Shown here: positions 1-8,713 of the stretch, piece after piece
How positions within the stretch are numbered: position 1 is the first letter of the stretch
How the letters are laid out: the number at the start of each line of letters is the position of its first letter
NCBI GenBank assembly: GCA_000004985.1
Contig: GG739051.1
Length of the DNA: 8,928 nucleotides
Origin: Naegleria gruberi
Taxonomy: Eukaryota
Strand: one strand, 5' to 3'
Program-made: the position numbers and the translations under genes
The notes under the pieces: model-generated
Database searches by the model: none
The model's input: only the letters and a program-made list of their open reading frames with translations
What the model was told of the DNA's origin: nothing

Positions 1-314
1 TAAACAGTCAAATCGTTTGATTGTTGCTTTTTATCAAATTCAAAGTAATTTTTCAGTAAATTATCATTTTGTAATGGTTTTCTCAATCTCGATTGTTTAA
101 TATTCAATTGATGATTTCTCTTTTTTACTTTAACTTTCATTGTAACATTACTAGTTTCATCAATGAATGACATGTTGTTATTACTACTGCTTGAATCACT
201 CCGTCTAATCCCATGATTATTATTATTAGTACAAGTATTAGTATTAGTAGTAGTAGTAGTAGTAGTAGTATTATTATTACTATTATAAGTGTCTCTATTA
301 GTATTATTCTTCAT
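1..314 (-). CDS. Paralog A of a local gene family, 5' part only. The ATG is at 314-312 and the gene continues past position 1. Hand translation: MKNNTNRDTYNSNNNTTTTTTTTTNTNTCTNNNNHGIRRSDSSSSNNNMSFIDETSNVTMKVKVKKRNHQLNIKQSRLRKPLQNDNLLKNYFEFDKKQQSNDLTV...
   Basis: I translated the minus strand by hand. The frame is open from the in-frame stop at 344-342, through the first ATG at 314-312, to the window edge (more than 100 codons). Residues 48-95 align almost residue for residue with the N-terminus of ORFs 3131..3703 and 4799.. (MSFIDETSNVT.K.KVKKRN..L.IKQSRLRKPLQNDNLLKNYFEFDK). The ORF track omits it because it runs off the window. Confidence 0.6.
   Translation of the reverse strand, partial: MKNNTNRDTYNSNNNTTTTTTTTNTNTCTNNNNHGIRRSDSSSSNNNMSFIDETSNVTMKVKVKKRNHQLNIKQSRLRKPLQNDNLLKNYFEFDKKQQSNDLTV
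241..270 (-). repeat. (AGT)n trinucleotide microsatellite, about 9-10 units. It encodes a poly-Thr run in the N-terminal extension that only paralog A has.
   Basis: The run of agt repeats at 241-270 is directly visible. It reads ACT (Thr) in the minus-strand frame. Confidence 0.8.
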
Positions 315-412: not shown

Positions 413-451
413 AAGTTATATACTCATACCATATTTAGAACATGCCAAATG
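413..451 (-). promoter_or_regulatory. Putative core promoter of paralog A. On the minus strand it reads CATTTGGCATGTTCTA (plus 451-436), then AAATATGG, then TATATA (plus 422-417), about 100-137 bp upstream of the ATG.
   Basis: The same 16-mer, CATTTGGCATGTTCTA, followed by a TA[AT]AT[AT]GG box, lies at the equivalent distance upstream of paralogs B (2996-3018) and C (4691-4712). The leader that follows is CAA/CCA-rich, as in B and C. Confidence 0.45.
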
Positions 452-1762
452 TAAACTCAAGTTTGAAATATATCAAAGTTTTTGTAAATTAAACTAATTC
501 TATTGTAAGCCTTTCATAATAGTTTCATATATTTACCTAATATAAAATGATTTGAATGTGCTTGACTATTGATGCTACTCAATTATTGGCCAACTCTTGA
601 TTATATCTTGACTATTCAATGGACACACAGAGAGTACTCACTGTGTAGGGTTTGCTAGCTAATAAGAGAAATTGATTTGAAATGATTTTTTTCACTCATC
701 ATTTTCATGTGATCACATCCAATGTTGATTTGTTGAAAGTGGTGTTGAGTTTCTGCAGAAAACAAGGAAATTGATGATGTGTTGGTTGCGTGGTTGGTGA
801 AAAACAATGCACTGCTGCAGGTAGGTCTGTCACTTCGTTCTATACTAAATTGAAAGAGTCTACAAACGGATAGGCTTAAAATTGTGAAATAATCTCATTA
901 TTAGTACTATTAATTACGAAAGGACCTTTACAACTCATAAAAATGATGTGATGAACAATGATGGAGTGATTTGTTTGACATTTGTTATTTCTCTTATATA
1001 TCTGTTCGTATCAAATCAATGCATGTGTTGGTTCCTACCACTTGATGATACATGCGATGCATTTATCTTCCATCATCATACGATGTAAATATTATATTAC
1101 ATGTATTACATGTGTTATTATTACCAACACGCACCAGTGAGCTAATAATCATATTAAAAAATTGTCTCTTGTGGGATAGAGGGTGATGACATTTTTTTGT
1201 GAGTTTTAAAGATGGATTTCATATTTGGGAGGTTTCCAAACAGATACCTCACATTGTGCTGATTAATTCTCATCAATAAGTGCAATAATTCATACAACTT
1301 ATATTCCATTCATTGATCATCTATATTGACAGAATCATCATCCAATTGATTCAATATCATCCTATATGGGTTTAATAACTGTGTTATATGATAAAACTCA
1401 ATAGTTTATACCCCACAATTTATGGAGATTAAATCACACACTCATCTATTTGAATAAGATCTCATCCAAACAAATTAACATTCCAAGAATTGATCAGAGA
1501 TATATTACTGTCTCTTAATGTTTAAAAGGCAATCATTTCACAAATTATAGAGTTATCCATAGATCTTCTTAAGCATCAATGAATCAAAGAAGGAAACTGT
1601 CTTTTTTATATTAATAGGGCGCAGTGGTTTCCTTAACATTTAAAATAAATGGCTTTGTTCTCTGAATAAATTCATATTAAGGATGAAAATAAAAAACAAA
1701 TACCAATATATTATTATTATTAACCATTAACAATACTCAACACTACTACTACTATTACAAGA

Positions 1763-2124
1763 ATGAAAAGTTGTGAAAATTATTCCTTAACATTGAATCA
1801 CCAACANNNNNNNNNNNNNNNNNNNNNNNNNNNNNNNNNNNNNNNNNNNNNNNNNNNNNNNCAACAGAGCCTATTACTACTTGCTCATCTTTAGCTAATA
1901 ATCATAATGATGATGATGCTTATATTAGAGTGAGAAGACCTTCGGAGCACAAAAGTACATGTACCAGTGAAGATAATATTATTATTCAACCATTATCATC
2001 ATCACCATTATTCAATAATATTACTCCTAGGAAGACCACTACTATAACAACGACCAATATTGCTACAACAACAAGTGAACGTAAGCATAGAACTGCAATA
2101 ACCTTCCAAGAATTATTAAATTAA
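1763..2124 (+). CDS. Hypothetical small protein whose ORF spans the 55-N gap. The 5' part (ATG 1763, MKSCENYSLTLNHQ..) and the 3' part (..TEPITTCSSLANNHNDDDAYIRVRRPSEHKSTCTSEDNIIIQPLSSSPLFNNITPRKTTTITTTNIATTTSERKHRTAITFQELLN*) are joined only by assumption. Whether the frame is continuous across the gap is unknown.
   Basis: After the gap only one frame is open, for 87 codons up to the TAA at 2122-2124. That is unusual at this AT content. The ORF-track 'M' at 1930 is a GTG, not an ATG. Before the gap a frame is open from 1724 with an ATG at 1763. AATAAA at 2186-2191 lies about 65 bp past the stop. Confidence 0.3.
1807..1861. other. Assembly gap (55 N).
   Basis: Run of n. Confidence 0.99.
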
Positions 2125-2737: not shown

Positions 2738-3542
2738 TGGACAATTGGAATATTAGAGAACTATTATTGAGAACACAATACATATTTAATACTAACCAGT
2801 TTTAGACTTTCTAATTTAATATTGAGATTTCATCTCTCATGGCAGAGTACAATAGTGCTTGCTATGTGGTCTATTCATTGTTACAACTGATTGTCCAACA
2901 AAAAAACAACAACAAGTAGCATTGAATTATCAATCTCAAATAATATAGGTATGTTGATAGAAAACAACAGCACTGTATCTATTGGAATGAATGTTCATTT
3001 GGCATGTTCTATATATGGAATGCTGTCTTATAAAAGAAGGTCAAATAACAGCAACAACAAGTTAGTACAACAAAAATACCACAACAAGAGTGATTAATTT
3101 TATTAAAAAATAATCAAGAACACATATCCAATGAAGAAGAATCAGAATTCCAACAACATGTCATTCATTGATGAAACTAGCAATGTTACAAAGAAAGCAA
3201 AAGTGAAAAAGAGAAATAAGGAATTGAAAATTAAACAATCGAGATTGAGAAAACCATTACAAAATGATAATTTATTGAAAAATTATTTTGAATTTGATAA
3301 GCAACAATTAACAGAAAGTGATTTGACTATTTACAAAATTATTAATCCACCAAATGCATCAACCACCATCATTGATAATTCTAATACTTCTAGTAGTATT
3401 GAAAATAATACAACATGTCCAATAGAAACATCAACAGTTGATACAATTATTACATGTCAGAAGGTTAAATGCAAAACTATGAATAATACTAATAATTTGA
3501 ATCAACATGCATCTAGTAATATTGAATATTCATCATCATCAC
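2738..3542 (+). repeat. Tandem segmental duplication, unit 1 (promoter plus 5' CDS of paralog B). It matches 4433-5207. Weaker similarity extends upstream to about 2500, matching about 4255.
   Basis: By eye the two units align with a period of 1668 bp (ATG 3131 and ATG 4799). The first 233 nt of the CDS are identical apart from one synonymous change (aat/aac). The proximal promoter is about 90% identical with indels, including one of 27 bp. Farther upstream only short motifs are shared, for example aacttgtaatcca at 2590-2602 and 4324-4336. Confidence 0.85.
2976..3018 (+). promoter_or_regulatory. Putative promoter of paralog B. It has an inverted CCAAT (attgg, 2981-2985), the conserved CATTTGGCATGTTCTA (2996-3011) and a TATA-like ctatatatgg (3009-3018), about 115-150 bp upstream of the ATG.
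   Basis: The block is conserved with paralog C (4671-4712). The 16-mer is also conserved upstream of paralog A. A CAA-rich leader follows. Confidence 0.5.
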
Positions 3543-3703
3543 TAACAATCAACTCAATCAACAGCAGTAGTGGTGGAAGCAGTACTAGTGGAAGCAGCAG
3601 TAGTGCATGCAGTGATAATACTTCAAAAGAAGAAGAAGAAGAAGCAGTAGAATTTGATGATTGTGAAAGCTTTCTCAGTTCAATTTCGTTTCTTTTTAAT
3701 TAA
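3131..3703 (+). CDS. Paralog B, complete, 190 aa. It has a basic N-terminal module that looks like a bipartite NLS (KKAKVKKRNKELKIKQSRLRK), an NYFEFD motif, a Ser/Thr/Asn-rich middle and an acidic C-terminus (SKEEEEEAVEFDDCESFLSSISFLFN). Function unknown.
   Basis: The ORF runs from ATG to TAA. The N-terminal half is duplicated at 4799 with in-frame indels only (a 3-nt difference across the variable block plus a 6-nt tgtcag indel), which argues for coding constraint. The module is conserved in minus-strand paralog A. AATAAA lies 76 bp past the stop. Confidence 0.7.
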   Translation: MKKNQNSNNMSFIDETSNVTKKAKVKKRNKELKIKQSRLRKPLQNDNLLKNYFEFDKQQLTESDLTIYKIINPPNASTTIIDNSNTSSSIENNTTCPIETSTVDTIITCQKVKCKTMNNTNNLNQHASSNIEYSSSSLTINSINSSSGGSSTSGSSSSACSDNTSKEEEEEAVEFDDCESFLSSISFLFN

Positions 3704-3778
3704 GTTCTCTCTTTGAAACAGTTTTACGAGTAGTATTTACGCATGTCTATTTATGATCTATTCAAATTAAGGTCAATC

Positions 3779-3784
3779 AATAAA
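3779..3784 (+). terminator. Putative poly(A) signal AATAAA for paralog B.
   Basis: caataaacatg lies about 76 bp downstream of the TAA at 3701-3703. Confidence 0.35.
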
Positions 3785-4670
3785 CATGTAAAATTACTAA
3801 AAACATTAAATTAGCTCACACAATCATCGTTTCCAAAAGTTGTATTACTTTAAGATTTTTTAAATAATTGTACAATTATTGAATGCATGCTACAACAAGT
3901 ACTATAAGTTCTTCATCGAACAGGTGAGCACTATTCATTTCTTGCGTGCATGTGTTGCAAGAGAGAGATACGAATAAACATTAATCTAGTTGTCCAACTT
4001 ACTTTTTATGAATATCGCATGAACGAGTTCTACCTTCCTTATTCAATCCTGAGAACACATTTGGGGTCTAGAAAGCAATTACAACTTTAAAAAAAATTGA
4101 ATCATGATGACAAAGCTAGAAAACCACACATGCTTTTACTATCTCAACACTTGGTAGATGTGTGTTGTATTTTTTGAAAATGTTTCAACAACAATTTATT
4201 TCGCGAAAGGTTTTGTGAGCCTTAAAGTGTTGTTGATGGCTTTTTAGAATCACATGTATTTATTGCATGCATGTGGTGAAGCATCATGATGATGATCTAA
4301 TTGTTTGTTTGATGCATGTATCAAACTTGTAATCCATTGCATGCATCTAATAACACATCCATTCAACCTTCACATGCCGAATCATCATGGTTAAACATGC
4401 ATGTCTATCATTTGTATTCGAATGGCTAATAGTCGGGCAATGGGAAATTAGAGAACTATTATTGAGAATAATTCCACTTATTTAATACTAACCACTTATA
4501 GACTTTCTAATTTAATCATTTGATTACATAACAACTCTCGCCAAGGCTTCATGACTTTGGTTTACAACAAAAAAATCATCAACAAGCATCTACATTCAAT
4601 CCAGTTATTACATTGACCTATCAATCTCAAATATCAATAATAGGTATGTTGATTGAAAACAACAACACTG

Positions 4671-4712
4671 TATCTATTGGAATGAATGTACATTTGGCAT
4701 GTTCTATAATTG
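4671..4712 (+). promoter_or_regulatory. Putative promoter of paralog C. It has an inverted CCAAT (attgg, 4676-4680), CATTTGGCATGTTCTA (4691-4706) and a TATA-like taattgg.
   Basis: Aligned copy of 2976-3018. It sits 27 bp closer to the ATG because of an indel in the leader. Confidence 0.5.
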
Positions 4713-4798
4713 GTAATCAAACTTATTAAAGAAAGTCAAATAACAGCAACAACAAGAGTGATTAATTTTATTAAAAAATAATCAAGAACACATATCCA

Positions 4799-5207
4799 AT
4801 GAAGAAGAACCAGAATTCCAACAACATGTCATTCATTGATGAAACTAGCAATGTTACAAAGAAAGCAAAAGTGAAAAAGAGAAATAAGGAATTGAAAATT
4901 AAACAATCGAGATTGAGAAAACCATTACAAAATGATAATTTATTGAAAAATTATTTTGAATTTGATAAGCAACAATTAACAGAAAGTGATTTGACTATTT
5001 ACAAAATTATTAATCCACCAAATGCATCTACTGACAATACTTTTTCAGAAAATATTACAACTTGCTCGAATGCATCATCATTATCATCAGGTACTAGTGA
5101 AAATGTAAAGGATACAATTATTACAAAGGTTAAATGCAAAACTATGAATAATACTAATAATTTGAATCAACATGCATCTAGTAATATTGAATATTCATCA
5201 TCATCAC
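4799..5207 (+). CDS. Paralog C, 5' part only. The 3' end is lost in the 1784-N gap. Residues 1-78 are identical to B, the next roughly 26 aa are unrelated (DNTFSENITTCSNASSLSSGTSENVK), and identity then resumes (DTIITKVKCKTMNNTNNLNQHASSNIEYSSSS).
   Basis: The ORF starts at ATG 4799 and is open up to the N run. The alignment to B at nucleotide and protein level was done by eye. Everything in the ORF-track entry beyond 5207 is X from the gap. Confidence 0.65.
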
Positions 5208-6991
5208 NNNNNNNNNNNNNNNNNNNNNNNNNNNNNNNNNNNNNNNNNNNNNNNNNNNNNNNNNNNNNNNNNNNNNNNNNNNNNNNNNNNNNNNNNNNNN
5301 NNNNNNNNNNNNNNNNNNNNNNNNNNNNNNNNNNNNNNNNNNNNNNNNNNNNNNNNNNNNNNNNNNNNNNNNNNNNNNNNNNNNNNNNNNNNNNNNNNNN
5401 NNNNNNNNNNNNNNNNNNNNNNNNNNNNNNNNNNNNNNNNNNNNNNNNNNNNNNNNNNNNNNNNNNNNNNNNNNNNNNNNNNNNNNNNNNNNNNNNNNNN
5501 NNNNNNNNNNNNNNNNNNNNNNNNNNNNNNNNNNNNNNNNNNNNNNNNNNNNNNNNNNNNNNNNNNNNNNNNNNNNNNNNNNNNNNNNNNNNNNNNNNNN
5601 NNNNNNNNNNNNNNNNNNNNNNNNNNNNNNNNNNNNNNNNNNNNNNNNNNNNNNNNNNNNNNNNNNNNNNNNNNNNNNNNNNNNNNNNNNNNNNNNNNNN
5701 NNNNNNNNNNNNNNNNNNNNNNNNNNNNNNNNNNNNNNNNNNNNNNNNNNNNNNNNNNNNNNNNNNNNNNNNNNNNNNNNNNNNNNNNNNNNNNNNNNNN
5801 NNNNNNNNNNNNNNNNNNNNNNNNNNNNNNNNNNNNNNNNNNNNNNNNNNNNNNNNNNNNNNNNNNNNNNNNNNNNNNNNNNNNNNNNNNNNNNNNNNNN
5901 NNNNNNNNNNNNNNNNNNNNNNNNNNNNNNNNNNNNNNNNNNNNNNNNNNNNNNNNNNNNNNNNNNNNNNNNNNNNNNNNNNNNNNNNNNNNNNNNNNNN
6001 NNNNNNNNNNNNNNNNNNNNNNNNNNNNNNNNNNNNNNNNNNNNNNNNNNNNNNNNNNNNNNNNNNNNNNNNNNNNNNNNNNNNNNNNNNNNNNNNNNNN
6101 NNNNNNNNNNNNNNNNNNNNNNNNNNNNNNNNNNNNNNNNNNNNNNNNNNNNNNNNNNNNNNNNNNNNNNNNNNNNNNNNNNNNNNNNNNNNNNNNNNNN
6201 NNNNNNNNNNNNNNNNNNNNNNNNNNNNNNNNNNNNNNNNNNNNNNNNNNNNNNNNNNNNNNNNNNNNNNNNNNNNNNNNNNNNNNNNNNNNNNNNNNNN
6301 NNNNNNNNNNNNNNNNNNNNNNNNNNNNNNNNNNNNNNNNNNNNNNNNNNNNNNNNNNNNNNNNNNNNNNNNNNNNNNNNNNNNNNNNNNNNNNNNNNNN
6401 NNNNNNNNNNNNNNNNNNNNNNNNNNNNNNNNNNNNNNNNNNNNNNNNNNNNNNNNNNNNNNNNNNNNNNNNNNNNNNNNNNNNNNNNNNNNNNNNNNNN
6501 NNNNNNNNNNNNNNNNNNNNNNNNNNNNNNNNNNNNNNNNNNNNNNNNNNNNNNNNNNNNNNNNNNNNNNNNNNNNNNNNNNNNNNNNNNNNNNNNNNNN
6601 NNNNNNNNNNNNNNNNNNNNNNNNNNNNNNNNNNNNNNNNNNNNNNNNNNNNNNNNNNNNNNNNNNNNNNNNNNNNNNNNNNNNNNNNNNNNNNNNNNNN
6701 NNNNNNNNNNNNNNNNNNNNNNNNNNNNNNNNNNNNNNNNNNNNNNNNNNNNNNNNNNNNNNNNNNNNNNNNNNNNNNNNNNNNNNNNNNNNNNNNNNNN
6801 NNNNNNNNNNNNNNNNNNNNNNNNNNNNNNNNNNNNNNNNNNNNNNNNNNNNNNNNNNNNNNNNNNNNNNNNNNNNNNNNNNNNNNNNNNNNNNNNNNNN
6901 NNNNNNNNNNNNNNNNNNNNNNNNNNNNNNNNNNNNNNNNNNNNNNNNNNNNNNNNNNNNNNNNNNNNNNNNNNNNNNNNNNNNNNNNNNN
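5208..6991. other. Assembly gap (1784 N). It starts inside the Ser-rich low-complexity coding part of paralog C.
   Basis: Run of n. Its length (1784 bp) is close to the tandem period (1668 bp). Confidence 0.99.
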
Positions 6992-7161: not shown

Positions 7162-7746
7162 TTATTCCATATGAAAAGTCCATATTGGAAAATTAAACTC
7201 CATTTGAGTTTGTGCTGGATTGGAATAGGCTGAATTCTTTCTCTTTTGACATTTTCGTCTTCTTTTCAAATGTTTTGAATTTGAATTATCAATACAAGAA
7301 GTAGTGGATGAAATTGAGATTTTCTTTTCTGTATTTGGACTTGTATAATATTTGAATGAAGAAGAGGAAATCTTTCTCTTCTTTGAGATTGATGAGATAT
7401 TGGGCATGGTAGTATTTTCATTCTTGGTGGTGGTGAATATTGTTGGAAGTTGAAACGTTTCTAGTGCCTCATTGTGATCAGAATTGTTTAATACTACTAA
7501 TGAGGAACTAATTAATTGTTGATCTTTCACTAGTTCATCTGAATGAAAAACAAAGCTGTCATCTTGTTGGTGATGAACTTGTTTGATAGTCTGTAATATT
7601 TTCCAACTCTGCATAAAATCAACAATATCAAGATTTAAACTTGGCAATTCATTGTTACTGGTATTGATAGAAGAGGAGGAGGATGACATTGATGATGGAG
7701 AGACTATTCCACAATGAATATTAAATGGAGAGGGTAACATCAACAT
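7162..7746 (-). CDS. Hypothetical Ser/Asn-rich protein of about 194 aa, counted from the first ATG at 7746-7744. It has a C-terminal basic cluster (KHLKRRRKCQKRK). Function unknown.
   Basis: The frame is open on the minus strand from 7854 to the TAA at 7162. The ORF-track start at 7824 is a GTG and there is no ATG upstream in frame. The first ATG gives MLMLPSPF... AATAAA overlaps the stop (gaaTAAatt on the minus strand). Low-complexity composition makes a chance ORF more plausible than usual. Confidence 0.4.
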   Translation of the reverse strand: MLMLPSPFNIHCGIVSPSSMSSSSSSINTSNNELPSLNLDIVDFMQSWKILQTIKQVHHQQDDSFVFHSDELVKDQQLISSSLVVLNNSDHNEALETFQLPTIFTTTKNENTTMPNISSISKKRKISSSSFKYYTSPNTEKKISISSTTSCIDNSNSKHLKRRRKCQKRKNSAYSNPAQTQMEFNFPIWTFHME

Positions 7747-8167
7747 TTCAGCAACTGAACAATTGACTTGTTTTTTTTTTGAAATACTGTATCTGAATAG
7801 AGAGTTGGTGATGAGTTCTACCACTTTAATATTTACTATTCCAGTTTCAACTTGTCAAATCCGCAGAATAGTTATTTTATTGGTCAGTGCGATTTGTTAC
7901 AGAAATTCATGAAATCAAAATGGACTTGGATACTGAACAAGGCATTATTATCTCCTCAACAAAAGAGAGCAATCATGATTGTATATCAAGTTCTTCTCAA
8001 ATTGCCAAGAGGTATCTTTACGAAAATCATGAAATAAATGATTACTTGGCAGGTCTATTTAGGCTTGAGATACCATAGTGTTATGGAAAGAGATTTCACA
8101 ACTTTCAACTGTTGGCCAACAAACGTTATTAAGAAATTCTATTTTGTACATTTCGGTTAAACATTTA

Positions 8168-8713
8168 TTACCAAAATATTGGTTTTTTCAACATTTGATA
8201 ATATGGAGATTGTTCATCAGTTAATAGTTCAACAATTCCTTCATAATCTAAGGAGAGCATTAATTTTGAATTTAGTAATGATGATGATTCTGATCTTGTT
8301 TCAGATTGCTGATTAGTCAAAATTGAATGTGGGAAACACATTGATTGGAAATTATATCTACAACCATTATTACTGTCCGTACTTTCCTTTGGATGAACAA
8401 TGGTATTCAAAACACTACCTTCGCTATTAGAAACCTTCATTCCATTCGTTTCATTTTCTGTATCAGTTTTCTCTGAAACATGAAAATGAAACAAAGATTC
8501 AATAATTTTACTTGACATCATTTCACTATTTGACCTCTGAATTGTATTAAAATCCATTACTGTATATTCTTCATTCCTACTAATTTCATCTCTACATTTA
8601 GTTTTGTTTAGTTTACTATTTGGCACCATAACAAAGTAAAATTGTTTGAATTTATCGTGGTCGATTTGTTTTCTCAATTTTGAAGGGATTTTCCTGCTCA
8701 ACCCACTTGGCAT
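8168..8713 (-). CDS. Hypothetical 181-aa protein with a basic N-terminus (MPSGLSRKIPSKLRKQIDHDKFKQFYF...). It may be a distant relative of the A/B/C module.
   Basis: ORF from ATG (8713-8711) to TAA. Upstream in frame there are 19 open codons without an ATG and then a stop. TAATAAATG at the stop supplies AATAAA. The possible link to the family rests only on the weak pattern S[KR]LRK.[IL]..D.[FL]...YF, shared with KQSRLRKPLQNDNLLKNYF. Confidence 0.4.
   Translation of the reverse strand: MPSGLSRKIPSKLRKQIDHDKFKQFYFVMVPNSKLNKTKCRDEISRNEEYTVMDFNTIQRSNSEMMSSKIIESLFHFHVSEKTDTENETNGMKVSNSEGSVLNTIVHPKESTDSNNGCRYNFQSMCFPHSILTNQQSETRSESSSLLNSKLMLSLDYEGIVELLTDEQSPYYQMLKKPIFW

What the first reader, a model, noticed from the sequence alone, without database searches (positions are those of the whole stretch)
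3131..5207. Mosaic B/C paralog pair: identical 5' CDS, an unrelated internal cassette of about 80 nt, then identity again with a 6-nt in-frame indel
B 3131-3360 and C 4799-5028 differ by a single synonymous substitution (aat/aac, codon 4). From B 3361 / C 5029 the sequences are unalignable for 79 and 82 nt (TIIDNSNTSSSIENNTTCPIETSTV versus DNTFSENITTCSNASSLSSGTSENVK). The length difference is a multiple of 3, and a Thr-Thr-Cys is retained in both. Identity resumes at gatacaattattaca (3440 and 5111) and continues to the gap, except that B has an extra in-frame tgtcag (Cys-Gln, 3456-3461). Near-perfect flanks around a fully replaced internal block do not fit uniform divergence after duplication. 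The pattern suggests gene conversion that homogenises the 5' end, or a hypervariable cassette under diversifying selection or recombination. Upstream non-coding similarity decays with distance from the ATG, roughly 100% to 90% to 60-70%, which is the gradient expected from conversion tracts anchored on the CDS.
Basis: seen in the sequence. Interest (0 to 1): 0.55.

Follow-up and report, generated by a model that had tools for sequence, protein, structure and literature searches.

The report
Tandem gene pair partly homogenised by conversion
Two neighbouring copies of a small, uncharacterised Naegleria gruberi gene are almost identical at both ends but keep a different, probably disordered linker in the middle, which is best explained by ordinary gene conversion between tandem duplicates.

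Summary
B 3131-3360 and C 4799-5028 differ at one synonymous base. A 79/82-nt block then cannot be aligned. Identity returns up to the gap, apart from a 6-nt indel.

The window is an entire 8,928-bp Naegleria gruberi scaffold. B and C are tandem members of an uncharacterised family without Pfam hits, found in Naegleria and Willaertia. The family has a conserved basic N-terminal domain, a linker of 7-159 aa, an (I/V)VTSEK-like motif and an acidic C-terminal helix. The "cassette" is that linker.

- Near-identity includes synonymous sites (dS 0.017) and 50 nt of 5' non-coding DNA.
- Homologous upstream blocks are only 79-86% identical or unalignable.
- A third paralog, D, differs from B at dS 0.30 over the same domain.

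This fits an old duplication with recent conversion tracts that stop at the heterologous linker.

An adjacent pair on a 243,952-bp scaffold carries exactly the same two cassettes. This argues against an assembly artefact and gives no sign of hypervariability.

Corrections:
- TGTCAG is at 3455-3460, and it is a deletion in C.
- The upstream profile is stepwise and ends abruptly at 2746/4441. It is not a gradient.

This is an ordinary mechanism in an undescribed protist family. Interest is low.

The parts
3131..3703 (+). Gene B, complete intronless CDS (190 aa; P0001 = EFC35724.1, NAEGRDRAFT_54780)
   Evidence: ORF. A 100% identical N. gruberi predicted protein on a contig of 8,928 bp.
4799..5207 (+). 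Gene C, first 136 codons, cut by the assembly gap. The full-length C type is known from P0003 (181 aa) on another scaffold.
3081..3360 (+). Homogenised tract 1 in B (5' leader plus codons 1-76). Partner in C is 4749-5028. One difference in 280 nt.
   Evidence: (D1). dS 0.017 and dN 0 over all flanks.
4749..5028 (+). Homogenised tract 1 in C
3361..3439 (+). B form of the variable linker ('cassette', 79 nt). It lies in the predicted disordered region.
   Evidence: Unalignable to C apart from a borderline 34-nt core. pLDDT 32-44. Identical in amino acids to P0002.
5029..5110 (+). C form of the variable linker (82 nt)
   Evidence: Identical in amino acids to P0003.
3440..3454 (+). 15-nt identical island (DTIIT) at the start of the family's (I/V)VTSEK-like motif. 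Partner is 5111-5125.
3455..3460 (+). TGTCAG (Cys-Gln), present in B and absent from C. B's length matches the family motif xVVTSEKVxVK, so this is a deletion in C.
3461..3542 (+). Homogenised tract 2 in B, 82 nt at 100%. Partner is 5126-5207, which runs into the gap.
   Evidence: (D5)
5126..5207 (+). Homogenised tract 2 in C
   Evidence: D5
3054..3080 (+). 27 nt present in B (D has sequence of similar length here) but missing in C. It is flanked by the 8-nt direct repeat ACAACAAG, so it is a microhomology deletion in C.
2920..3053 (+). Upstream block, 86% identical to C 4611-4748. It contains ACATTTGGCATGTTCTAWAWWTGG, also found upstream of D (425-459, minus strand). Reading it as a core promoter is inference.
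   Evidence: (D4, I4, I5)
2746..2835 (+). Distal upstream block, 79% identical to C 4441-4529. B/C homology begins abruptly here, probably at the edge of the duplicated unit (period 1668-1696 nt).
   Evidence: (D7, D11)
3..314 (-). Gene D, third paralog, cut by the scaffold end (P0004 = EFC35725.1, partial). It has a 47-aa low-complexity N-terminal extension. It is 91% nt-identical to B/C over 156 nt.
   Evidence: (I1, I2)
8168..8713 (-). Gene E, a distant fourth family member (181-aa ORF)
   Evidence: Family HMM E 1.5e-4 among 155 six-frame ORFs
3563..3652 (+). Microsatellite-like coding repeats (15-nt Ser/Gly unit, then (GAA)n). These are the sites of the indels that distinguish B, P0002 and P0003.
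5208..6991 (.). Assembly gap (1,784 N) hiding the 3' end of C and its downstream region

Best explanation
B and C are old tandem duplicates, with a repeat unit of about 1.67-1.70 kb. They belong to a Naegleria/Willaertia-specific gene family that encodes small, mostly disordered proteins. The family layout is a basic N-terminal helical domain, a variable linker, an (I/V)VTSEK-like motif, a low-complexity Ser-rich stretch and an acidic amphipathic C-terminal helix.

Homologous recombination between the two copies (interlocus gene conversion) has recently overwritten the alignable coding parts. Tract 1 covers 3081-3360 / 4749-5028. Tract 2 covers at least 3461-3542 / 5126-5207.

The roughly 80-100 nt between the tracts encodes the disordered linker. 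It had already diverged beyond alignment, so it offered no homology for heteroduplex extension and stayed unconverted. This leaves a mosaic of identical, different and identical segments.

Shown: the identity pattern, the family architecture, the tandem arrangement, and the stability of both linker forms in a second gene pair.

Inferred: that conversion is the process, that two tracts end at the heterology, and that the duplication is old.
For: 1. Identity pattern. One difference in 280 nt and none in 82 nt. The longest identical run is 218 nt, against a maximum of 56 in 10,000 column permutations.

2. The identity is at DNA level, not protein level.
- dS = 0.017 (1 of about 58 synonymous sites) and dN = 0.
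- The 50-nt non-coding leader is 100% identical.
- Homologous non-coding blocks of the same unit are 86%, 38% and 79% identical.
- With K = 0.11-0.15, P(at most 1 synonymous difference) = 0.013-0.002, and P(50 identical leader bases) = 0.003-0.0003.

3. Synonymous sites of this domain are free to vary. B against D gives dS 0.30, dN 0.052, omega 0.18. The Willaertia tandem pair is only about 80% nt-identical in the same domain and has no near-100% tract.

4. The cassette coincides with a linker that varies across the whole family, from 7 to 159 aa between the YK and VTSEK-like motifs. The linker is predicted to be disordered.

5. The mosaic is seen twice. P0003 (EFC38201.1, NAEGRDRAFT_53198) and P0002 (EFC38202.1, NAEGRDRAFT_53199) have consecutive accessions on a 243,952-bp scaffold. 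They carry exactly the C and B linkers with the same flanks.

6. Naegleria genomes encode RAD51, DMC1 and MSH2/6-type recombination and mismatch-repair genes (PMC9928731).
Against: - Only two sequences are available at DNA level over the full length. No tree-incongruence or GENECONV-type test with orthologues could be run.
- The DNA of the second scaffold could not be fetched.
- Homology of the two linkers is not demonstrable. Only a 34-nt core reaches p about 0.03. One linker could therefore be a replacement rather than an old divergent homologue.
- A single SDSA-type event spanning both flanks would normally copy the donor linker too. The model therefore needs at least two tracts, or selection against loss of one linker form.
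- The 3' extent of tract 2 is hidden by the gap.
Confidence: 0.75

Rival explanations
1. Very recent duplication of the whole gene. The linker and upstream blocks of one copy were then overwritten, either by conversion from a third, unsampled paralog or by non-homologous replacement. The identical flanks would be the original state and the cassette would be the novelty.
For: - The linkers are statistically unalignable.
- C carries two derived deletions, of 27 nt and 6 nt, so C is the more altered copy.
- The N. gruberi genome holds other family members that could act as donors.
Against: - It needs separate imports for the upstream blocks and for the linker while sparing 280 nt between them.
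- No donor-like sequence exists in the window.
- Among the proteins returned by the database searches, only P0003 carries the C linker.
- The upstream blocks sit in the same order and at the same spacing in both units, as expected for one old duplicated unit.
Confidence: 0.12
2. The cassette is a hypervariable specificity module. It is kept different by diversifying selection, or shuffled by recombination that uses the conserved flanks as handles.
For: - Conserved flanks surround a fully different block.
- The linker is the most variable part across the family.
- Four family genes cluster in 9 kb.
Against: - Both cassette forms are 100% identical in amino acids between the two scaffolds. Other parts of the same proteins differ, for example S7A, a Thr indel, S/L, an EE indel and F/Y.
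- Only two forms are seen.
- No silent donor copies exist in the window.
- The linker is low-complexity and predicted disordered.
Confidence: 0.05
3. Assembly artefact: a collapsed or mis-joined repeat, or two alleles stitched in tandem, created the identical segments.
For: - The scaffold is small, gapped and ends inside a paralog. The gap starts inside identical tract 2.
- Small N. gruberi scaffolds often duplicate genes of large ones.
Against: - An independent scaffold carries the same adjacent B-type/C-type pair with the same mosaic. That pair has its own private differences.
- The identical tracts are flanked on both sides by copy-specific sequence within a few hundred bases.
- One real substitution separates the copies at 3142.
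Confidence: 0.03
4. Nucleotide-level purifying selection keeps the flanks identical without recombination, for example through an overlapping RNA element or antisense gene.
For: None beyond the identity itself.
Against: - The same segment differs from D by 12 of 144 nt, with dS 0.30.
- It is only about 80% identical between the Willaertia tandem genes.
- There is no antisense ORF of 50 aa or more over the identical tracts (3081-3360, 3461-3542) and no Rfam hit.
Confidence: 0.02

Closest known systems
Interlocus (ectopic) gene conversion and concerted evolution of tandem duplicates. The classic case is the human G-gamma/A-gamma globin pair, where a near-identical tract ends abruptly within the gene (from my own knowledge, not checked here).
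   Same: - Tandem paralogs in direct orientation.
- A tract of near-100% identity that includes silent and non-coding sites.
- Sharp tract boundaries next to sequence that is much more diverged.
   Different: - Here two tracts flank an unconverted internal block.
- The block is a low-complexity, probably disordered linker, not an intron or flank.
- The organism is a heterolobosean amoeboflagellate, and I found no description of this locus.
Paralogs homogenised by conversion except for segments that escape, for example primate L/M opsin genes, where tuning sites stay distinct (from my own knowledge).
   Same: A mosaic of homogenised and persistently different segments within one gene pair. Both forms are stably kept.
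   Different: There is no evidence here that selection maintains the difference. Lack of homology in the linker is sufficient to explain it.
Programmed cassette systems for antigenic or phase variation (trypanosome VSG, Neisseria pilE/pilS, Borrelia vlsE).
   Same: Conserved flanks surround a variable block. Gene conversion is the presumed process.
   Different: - No archive of silent cassettes was found in the window.
- There is no variability between the two sampled copies of each form.
- The protein has no recognised surface or secreted features (not formally tested).
Uncharacterised Naegleria/Willaertia protein family (N. gruberi D2W5C7, D2VY78, D2VY79, D2V1H8, D2VFA2, D2W420 and others; N. 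lovaniensis C9374_014028; Willaertia magna ABK040_006246, 006247 and 006269).
   Same: B, C and D share the invariant D-E-T, L, N-Y-F and the near-invariant L-R-K-x-L of the N-domain. B and C also share the VTSEK-like motif, and B the acidic DDCxSFLSS C-terminus. D and C are cut short before the later motifs.
   Different: The family has no Pfam model, no PDB relative and no literature. Its function is unknown. A nuclear or regulatory role is only a guess, from the basic helix and the acidic C-terminal helix.

Membership tests
Interlocus gene conversion between tandem paralogs | Two paralogous copies in the same genome, close together and in direct orientation | tested here: met
   B at 3131 and C at 4799 lie on the same strand with a period of 1668-1696 nt. 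The second pair has consecutive accessions and locus tags.
Interlocus gene conversion between tandem paralogs | Tract(s) whose identity is significantly higher than the rest of the homologous unit, including silent and non-coding sites | tested here: met
   Tracts are 99.6-100% identical, against 38-86% in the upstream blocks. dS is 0.017. The run of 218 nt exceeds the permutation maximum of 56.
Interlocus gene conversion between tandem paralogs | Silent sites of the tract are not otherwise constrained | tested here: met
   B-D dS is 0.30. The Willaertia pair is about 80% nt-identical.
Interlocus gene conversion between tandem paralogs | Phylogenetic incongruence: paralogs group together inside the tract, orthologues or alleles group together outside it | tested here: inconclusive
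   At protein level the linkers group B with P0002 and C with P0003. The flanks are equally similar among all four genes, and every flank difference is a singleton. No DNA is available for the second pair.
Programmed cassette-diversification system | Archive of alternative (silent) cassettes near or elsewhere in the genome | tested here: not met
   No other copy of either cassette exists in the window. The best non-self hits are 12-15 nt with E of 0.03 or more. The rest of the genome could not be searched at DNA level.
Programmed cassette-diversification system | Cassette differs between copies, haplotypes or isolates of the same gene | tested here: not met
   The B linker equals the P0002 linker and the C linker equals the P0003 linker, both 100% in amino acids.
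Naegleria/Willaertia FxDET-RLRKxLQN-NYFE family (unnamed) | N-terminal motif [SF][FI][IV]DET ... RLRKxLQNxxLLxNYFE[WF] | tested here: met
   Invariant columns are D14, E15, T16, L49, N51, Y52, F53. Nearly invariant columns are L39, R40, K41, L43. The profile search found 22 representative proteins with E of 1e-3 or better.
Naegleria/Willaertia FxDET-RLRKxLQN-NYFE family (unnamed) | Downstream (I/V)(I/V)T-S-E-K-like motif after a variable linker, and an acidic amphipathic C-terminus | tested here: met
   B has DTIITCQKVKCK and C has DTIITKVKCK. B and P0003 (the full-length C type) have EFDDCESFLSSISFL at the C-terminus, which aligns with Willaertia LKLDLEDFIQSL. The C copy in the window is cut by the gap before its C-terminus.

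The most novel reading that the evidence does not exclude
The linker is a functional specificity module, for example a partner-binding or modification segment that contains the conserved Cys. The family would use its nucleotide-identical flanks as recombination handles. Linkers could then be swapped among clustered paralogs while selection keeps distinct linker types. That would be a modular, conversion-driven way of diversifying a regulatory protein family in a free-living protist.
Probability: 0.05. Interest if true: 0.55.

Novelty: new member of a known kind. Interest (0 to 1): 0.22.

Why it matters
The finding is a clean small example of partial concerted evolution in Naegleria gruberi. 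Its conversion tracts appear to stop where homology runs out, at a disordered linker.

It is useful in three ways:
- It gives a local estimate of tract length, at least 280 nt and at least 82 nt.
- It is evidence of active homologous recombination between paralogs in this lineage.
- It is a caution for paralog dating and for assembling this heterozygous genome.

It also draws attention to an unannotated protein family, found so far only in Naegleria, Willaertia and unnamed environmental contigs, that occurs in tandem clusters. It does not point to a new mechanism.

Tried and rejected
- Fetching the DNA of P0001, P0002 and P0003 with the look-up of encoding contigs. None is on record, so the second gene pair could be compared only as protein.
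- Pfam on B, P0003 (the C type), D, the A exon and the two minus-strand ORFs. Nothing passed the thresholds.
- PDB sequence search with the family profile. No hit.
- AlphaFold2 on B with a 9-sequence alignment. Mean pLDDT was 46.9 and pTM 0.13. This is too poor for a fold search, so none was run.
- Homolog search with the A exon (1864-2124). It found nothing. A is also not detected by the family HMM (E 8.9). Its EPITTCSS resemblance to C's ENITTCSNASS (15 nt, E 0.13-0.44) is treated as chance or composition.
- Reverse-complement and frameshift explanations for the cassette. The reverse-complement alignment score is -1, and the DNA itself is unalignable.
- Codon-aware reading of the cassette. 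Six of 11 conserved codons would be synonymous changes, Fisher p 9e-7. I rejected this as evidence because the underlying protein alignment is not better than shuffles.
- Rfam scan of the window. No hit. No tRNA scan was run.
- Literature search for the locus tags and for gene conversion in Naegleria. Nothing specific was found.
Full report
**What the window is**

A protein search with the B ORF returned a 100% identical "predicted protein [Naegleria gruberi]". Its only contig is 8,928 bp long, which is the window length. The window is therefore a whole small scaffold of the N. gruberi assembly. It has two gaps, at 1807-1861 and 5208-6991. GC content is about 25-36%. There are no Rfam hits.

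**Checking the observation**

- B 3131-3360 and C 4799-5028 differ at a single base, 3142 T/C. The change is AAT/AAC, a synonymous change in Asn codon 4.
- The identical run also includes the 50 nt before the ATG: 3081-3130 = 4749-4798 (D1).
- From 3361/5029 the sequences are 79 and 82 nt long.
- A global nucleotide alignment of these blocks scores no better than mononucleotide or codon shuffles (z 0.9 and 0.3).
- A BLOSUM62 protein alignment is not significant either (global p 0.86, local p 0.24).
- Only a local 34-nt core encoding E-N-x-T-T-C is borderline. It has 27 identities, and 52 of 2000 codon shuffles reach its score.
- Neither a reverse-complement relation nor a second copy elsewhere in the window explains either cassette.
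- Identity resumes at GATACAATTATTACA (3440/5111).
- B then has TGTCAG at 3455-3460.
- 3461-3542 equals 5126-5207 exactly, up to the gap (D5).
- The longest identical run, 218 nt, far exceeds the maximum of 56 seen in 10,000 permutations of the alignment columns.

**The surroundings**

B and C are tandem, on the same strand, with a period of 1668-1696 nt. Homology between the two units starts abruptly at 2746/4441. The profile along the unit is as follows:

| B coordinates | Identity to C |
|---|---|
| 2746-2835 | 79% |
| 2836-2919 | 38% (essentially unalignable) |
| 2920-3053 | 86% |
| 3054-3080 | 27-nt indel |
| 3081-3130 | 100% |

This is a step profile, not a gradient. The abrupt start is most simply the edge of the duplicated unit.

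The 27 nt are flanked by the 8-nt direct repeat ACAACAAG. Paralog D has sequence of similar length at this position, so C carries a microhomology deletion.

A third paralog, D, lies on the minus strand at 314 down to 3 and is cut by the scaffold end. It is annotated as a partial protein (P0004, EFC35725.1). B, C and D share an upstream element, ACATTTGGCATGTTCTAWAWWTGG, about 110-145 nt before the ATG (I4/I5). I read it as a core promoter, which is an inference.

A fourth, distant member is the 181-aa ORF at 8168-8713 (minus strand). It hits a family HMM with E 1.5e-4 among 155 six-frame ORFs. The window is therefore a small cluster of one gene family.

**The gene family**

A profile search of 1.84 billion representative proteins found 22 relatives. 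Those that carry names come from three organisms:
- N. gruberi (several scaffolds)
- N. lovaniensis
- Willaertia magna

Others come from unnamed environmental or read-archive contigs. There are no Pfam hits, no PDB relatives and no literature on the locus tags.

The shared architecture has five parts:
1. An N-terminal [SF][FI][IV]DET ... basic stretch ... RLRKxLQNxxLLxNYFE[WF] ... LTxYK domain. Invariant columns are D14, E15, T16, L49, N51, Y52 and F53.
2. A linker.
3. An (I/V)(I/V)TSEK-like motif.
4. Low-complexity sequence.
5. An acidic amphipathic C-terminus. This is DDCxSFLSS in some Naegleria members and LKLDLEDFIQSL in several Willaertia members.

The linker ranges from 7 to 159 aa in members where both bordering motifs are recognisable. 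The B/C "cassette" is exactly this linker.

B's DTIIT-CQ-KVKCK has the family spacing (xVVT-SE-KVxVK). The 6-nt indel is therefore a deletion in C.

An AlphaFold2 model of B is poor, with mean pLDDT 46.9. It predicts helices at 15-37, 46-53 and 178-189. The linker falls in the least confident part, with pLDDT 32-44. This is consistent with intrinsic disorder. I did not run a fold search on such a model.

**Why gene conversion is the best explanation**

The flanks are identical at the DNA level:
- There is one synonymous difference in about 58 synonymous sites (dS 0.017) and dN is 0.
- The 50-nt non-coding leader is identical.

The rest of the same duplicated unit is 79-86% identical at best. 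Using K = 0.11-0.15 from those blocks, which are probably constrained, gives P(at most 1 synonymous difference) = 0.013-0.002. It gives P(50 identical leader bases) = 0.003-0.0003.

Nucleotide-level constraint is excluded by two comparisons:
- The same domain differs between B and D by 12 of 144 nt, with dS 0.30 and omega 0.18.
- The tandem pair of Willaertia magna (L001 10001-10606 and 11182-11775) is only about 80% identical there, with no near-identical tract.

The Willaertia pair shows what unconverted tandem members of this family look like. They have conserved ends at about 70-80% and an unalignable middle. The N. gruberi pair has the same pattern with the alignable parts reset to about 100%.

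The simplest history is an old duplication followed by recent conversion tracts of at least 280 nt and at least 82 nt. These tracts end where homology ends. Naegleria genomes encode the recombination and mismatch-repair genes required (PMC9928731).

**The second gene pair**

P0002 (187 aa) and P0003 (181 aa) lie on a 243,952-bp scaffold. They have consecutive GenBank accessions and locus tags: EFC38201.1/NAEGRDRAFT_53198 and EFC38202.1/NAEGRDRAFT_53199. I take this to mean they are adjacent.

P0002 carries the B linker and CQ. P0003 carries the C linker and lacks CQ. Both linkers match the window copies exactly.

The pairs differ elsewhere:
- S7A in P0003
- a Thr deletion, S-to-L and an EE deletion in P0002
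- F/Y at the penultimate residue

Most of these fall in regions that Tandem Repeats Finder marks as coding microsatellites (3563-3613 with period 15, and 3627-3652 with a 3-nt AAG unit).

Three things follow:
- The mosaic is not an assembly artefact.
- Each linker form is stable and shows no sign of hypervariability.
- P0003 supplies the full length of the C-type gene that the gap hides.

Whether the small scaffold is the alternative haplotype or a segmental duplicate cannot be decided here. Naegleria is described as mainly a heterozygous diploid (PMC9928731). Another small N. gruberi scaffold likewise duplicates a gene of a large one (P0031 and P0018).

**Limits**

I could not obtain DNA for the second pair. 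The classical test, segment-wise tree incongruence or GENECONV, could not be run. All flank differences among the four proteins are uninformative singletons.

Homology of the two linkers is not established. A variant in which C's linker and upstream blocks were imported from a third paralog remains possible, at about 0.12. It is still gene conversion, in the other direction.

One event spanning both flanks would normally carry the donor linker along. The model therefore needs two tracts, or selection for keeping both linker types. I cannot tell these apart.

**Verdict**

The hypervariable-cassette idea and the smooth gradient are not.

This is a new instance of a well-known process, interlocus gene conversion bounded by heterology. 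It occurs in an undescribed Naegleria/Willaertia-specific family of small, largely disordered proteins.

Interest is low (0.22). The most novel reading not excluded is functional linker modules exchanged through conserved recombination handles, at about 5%.

Noticed in passing
window 8168-8713 (-): This 181-aa ORF is a distant fourth member of the same family. SKLRKQIDHDKFKQFYF matches RLRKxLQNxxLLxNYFE. The C-end KLMLSLDYEGIVELL resembles the Willaertia C-terminal motif. Family HMM E is 1.5e-4 among 155 six-frame ORFs.
   Followed up: partly
window 7162-7824 (-): This 220-aa ORF contains LPSLNLDIVDFMQSW, which resembles the family's C-terminal LKLDLEDFIQSL motif. The family HMM does not detect the ORF, and it has no Pfam hit.
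   Followed up: no
window 3-314 (-): Paralog D has a 47-aa N/T-rich N-terminal extension built on an (ACT)n/(AGT)n microsatellite (234-270). It is cut by the scaffold end just before the position where the B/C linker would begin.
   Followed up: partly
window 2746-2835 and 2920-3053 (C: 4441-4529, 4611-4748): The conserved upstream blocks contain splice-signal-like strings: TACTAAC followed by TTTTAG, and AGGTATGT. They also contain a TATA-like element shared with D (425-459). There could be a 5'-UTR intron or promoter modules. This was not tested.
   Followed up: no
window 1763-2124 (+), interrupted by gap 1807-1861: ORF A (MKSCENYSLTLNHQ ... gap ... TEPITTCSSLANN ... ITFQELLN) has no database homologue and no family HMM hit. 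Its TTCSS string resembles C's linker only at chance level.
   Followed up: yes
window 3054-3080: 27 nt are present in B but absent from C. They are bounded by the 8-nt direct repeat ACAACAAG, which fits a microhomology-mediated deletion in C's leader or promoter.
   Followed up: yes
L001 10001-10606 and 11182-11775 (Willaertia magna JBEGDK010000073.1): Two family members are also tandem in Willaertia. They are uniformly diverged, with about 80% nt identity in the N-domain. Tandem clustering is therefore a family trait, but recent homogenisation is not.
   Followed up: yes
N. gruberi assembly (proteins P0018 and P0031): Another small scaffold (6,848 bp) encodes a protein in the same 90%-identity cluster as a gene on a 342,059-bp scaffold. 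This suggests that many small scaffolds of this assembly are alternative haplotypes or recent duplicates.
   Followed up: no
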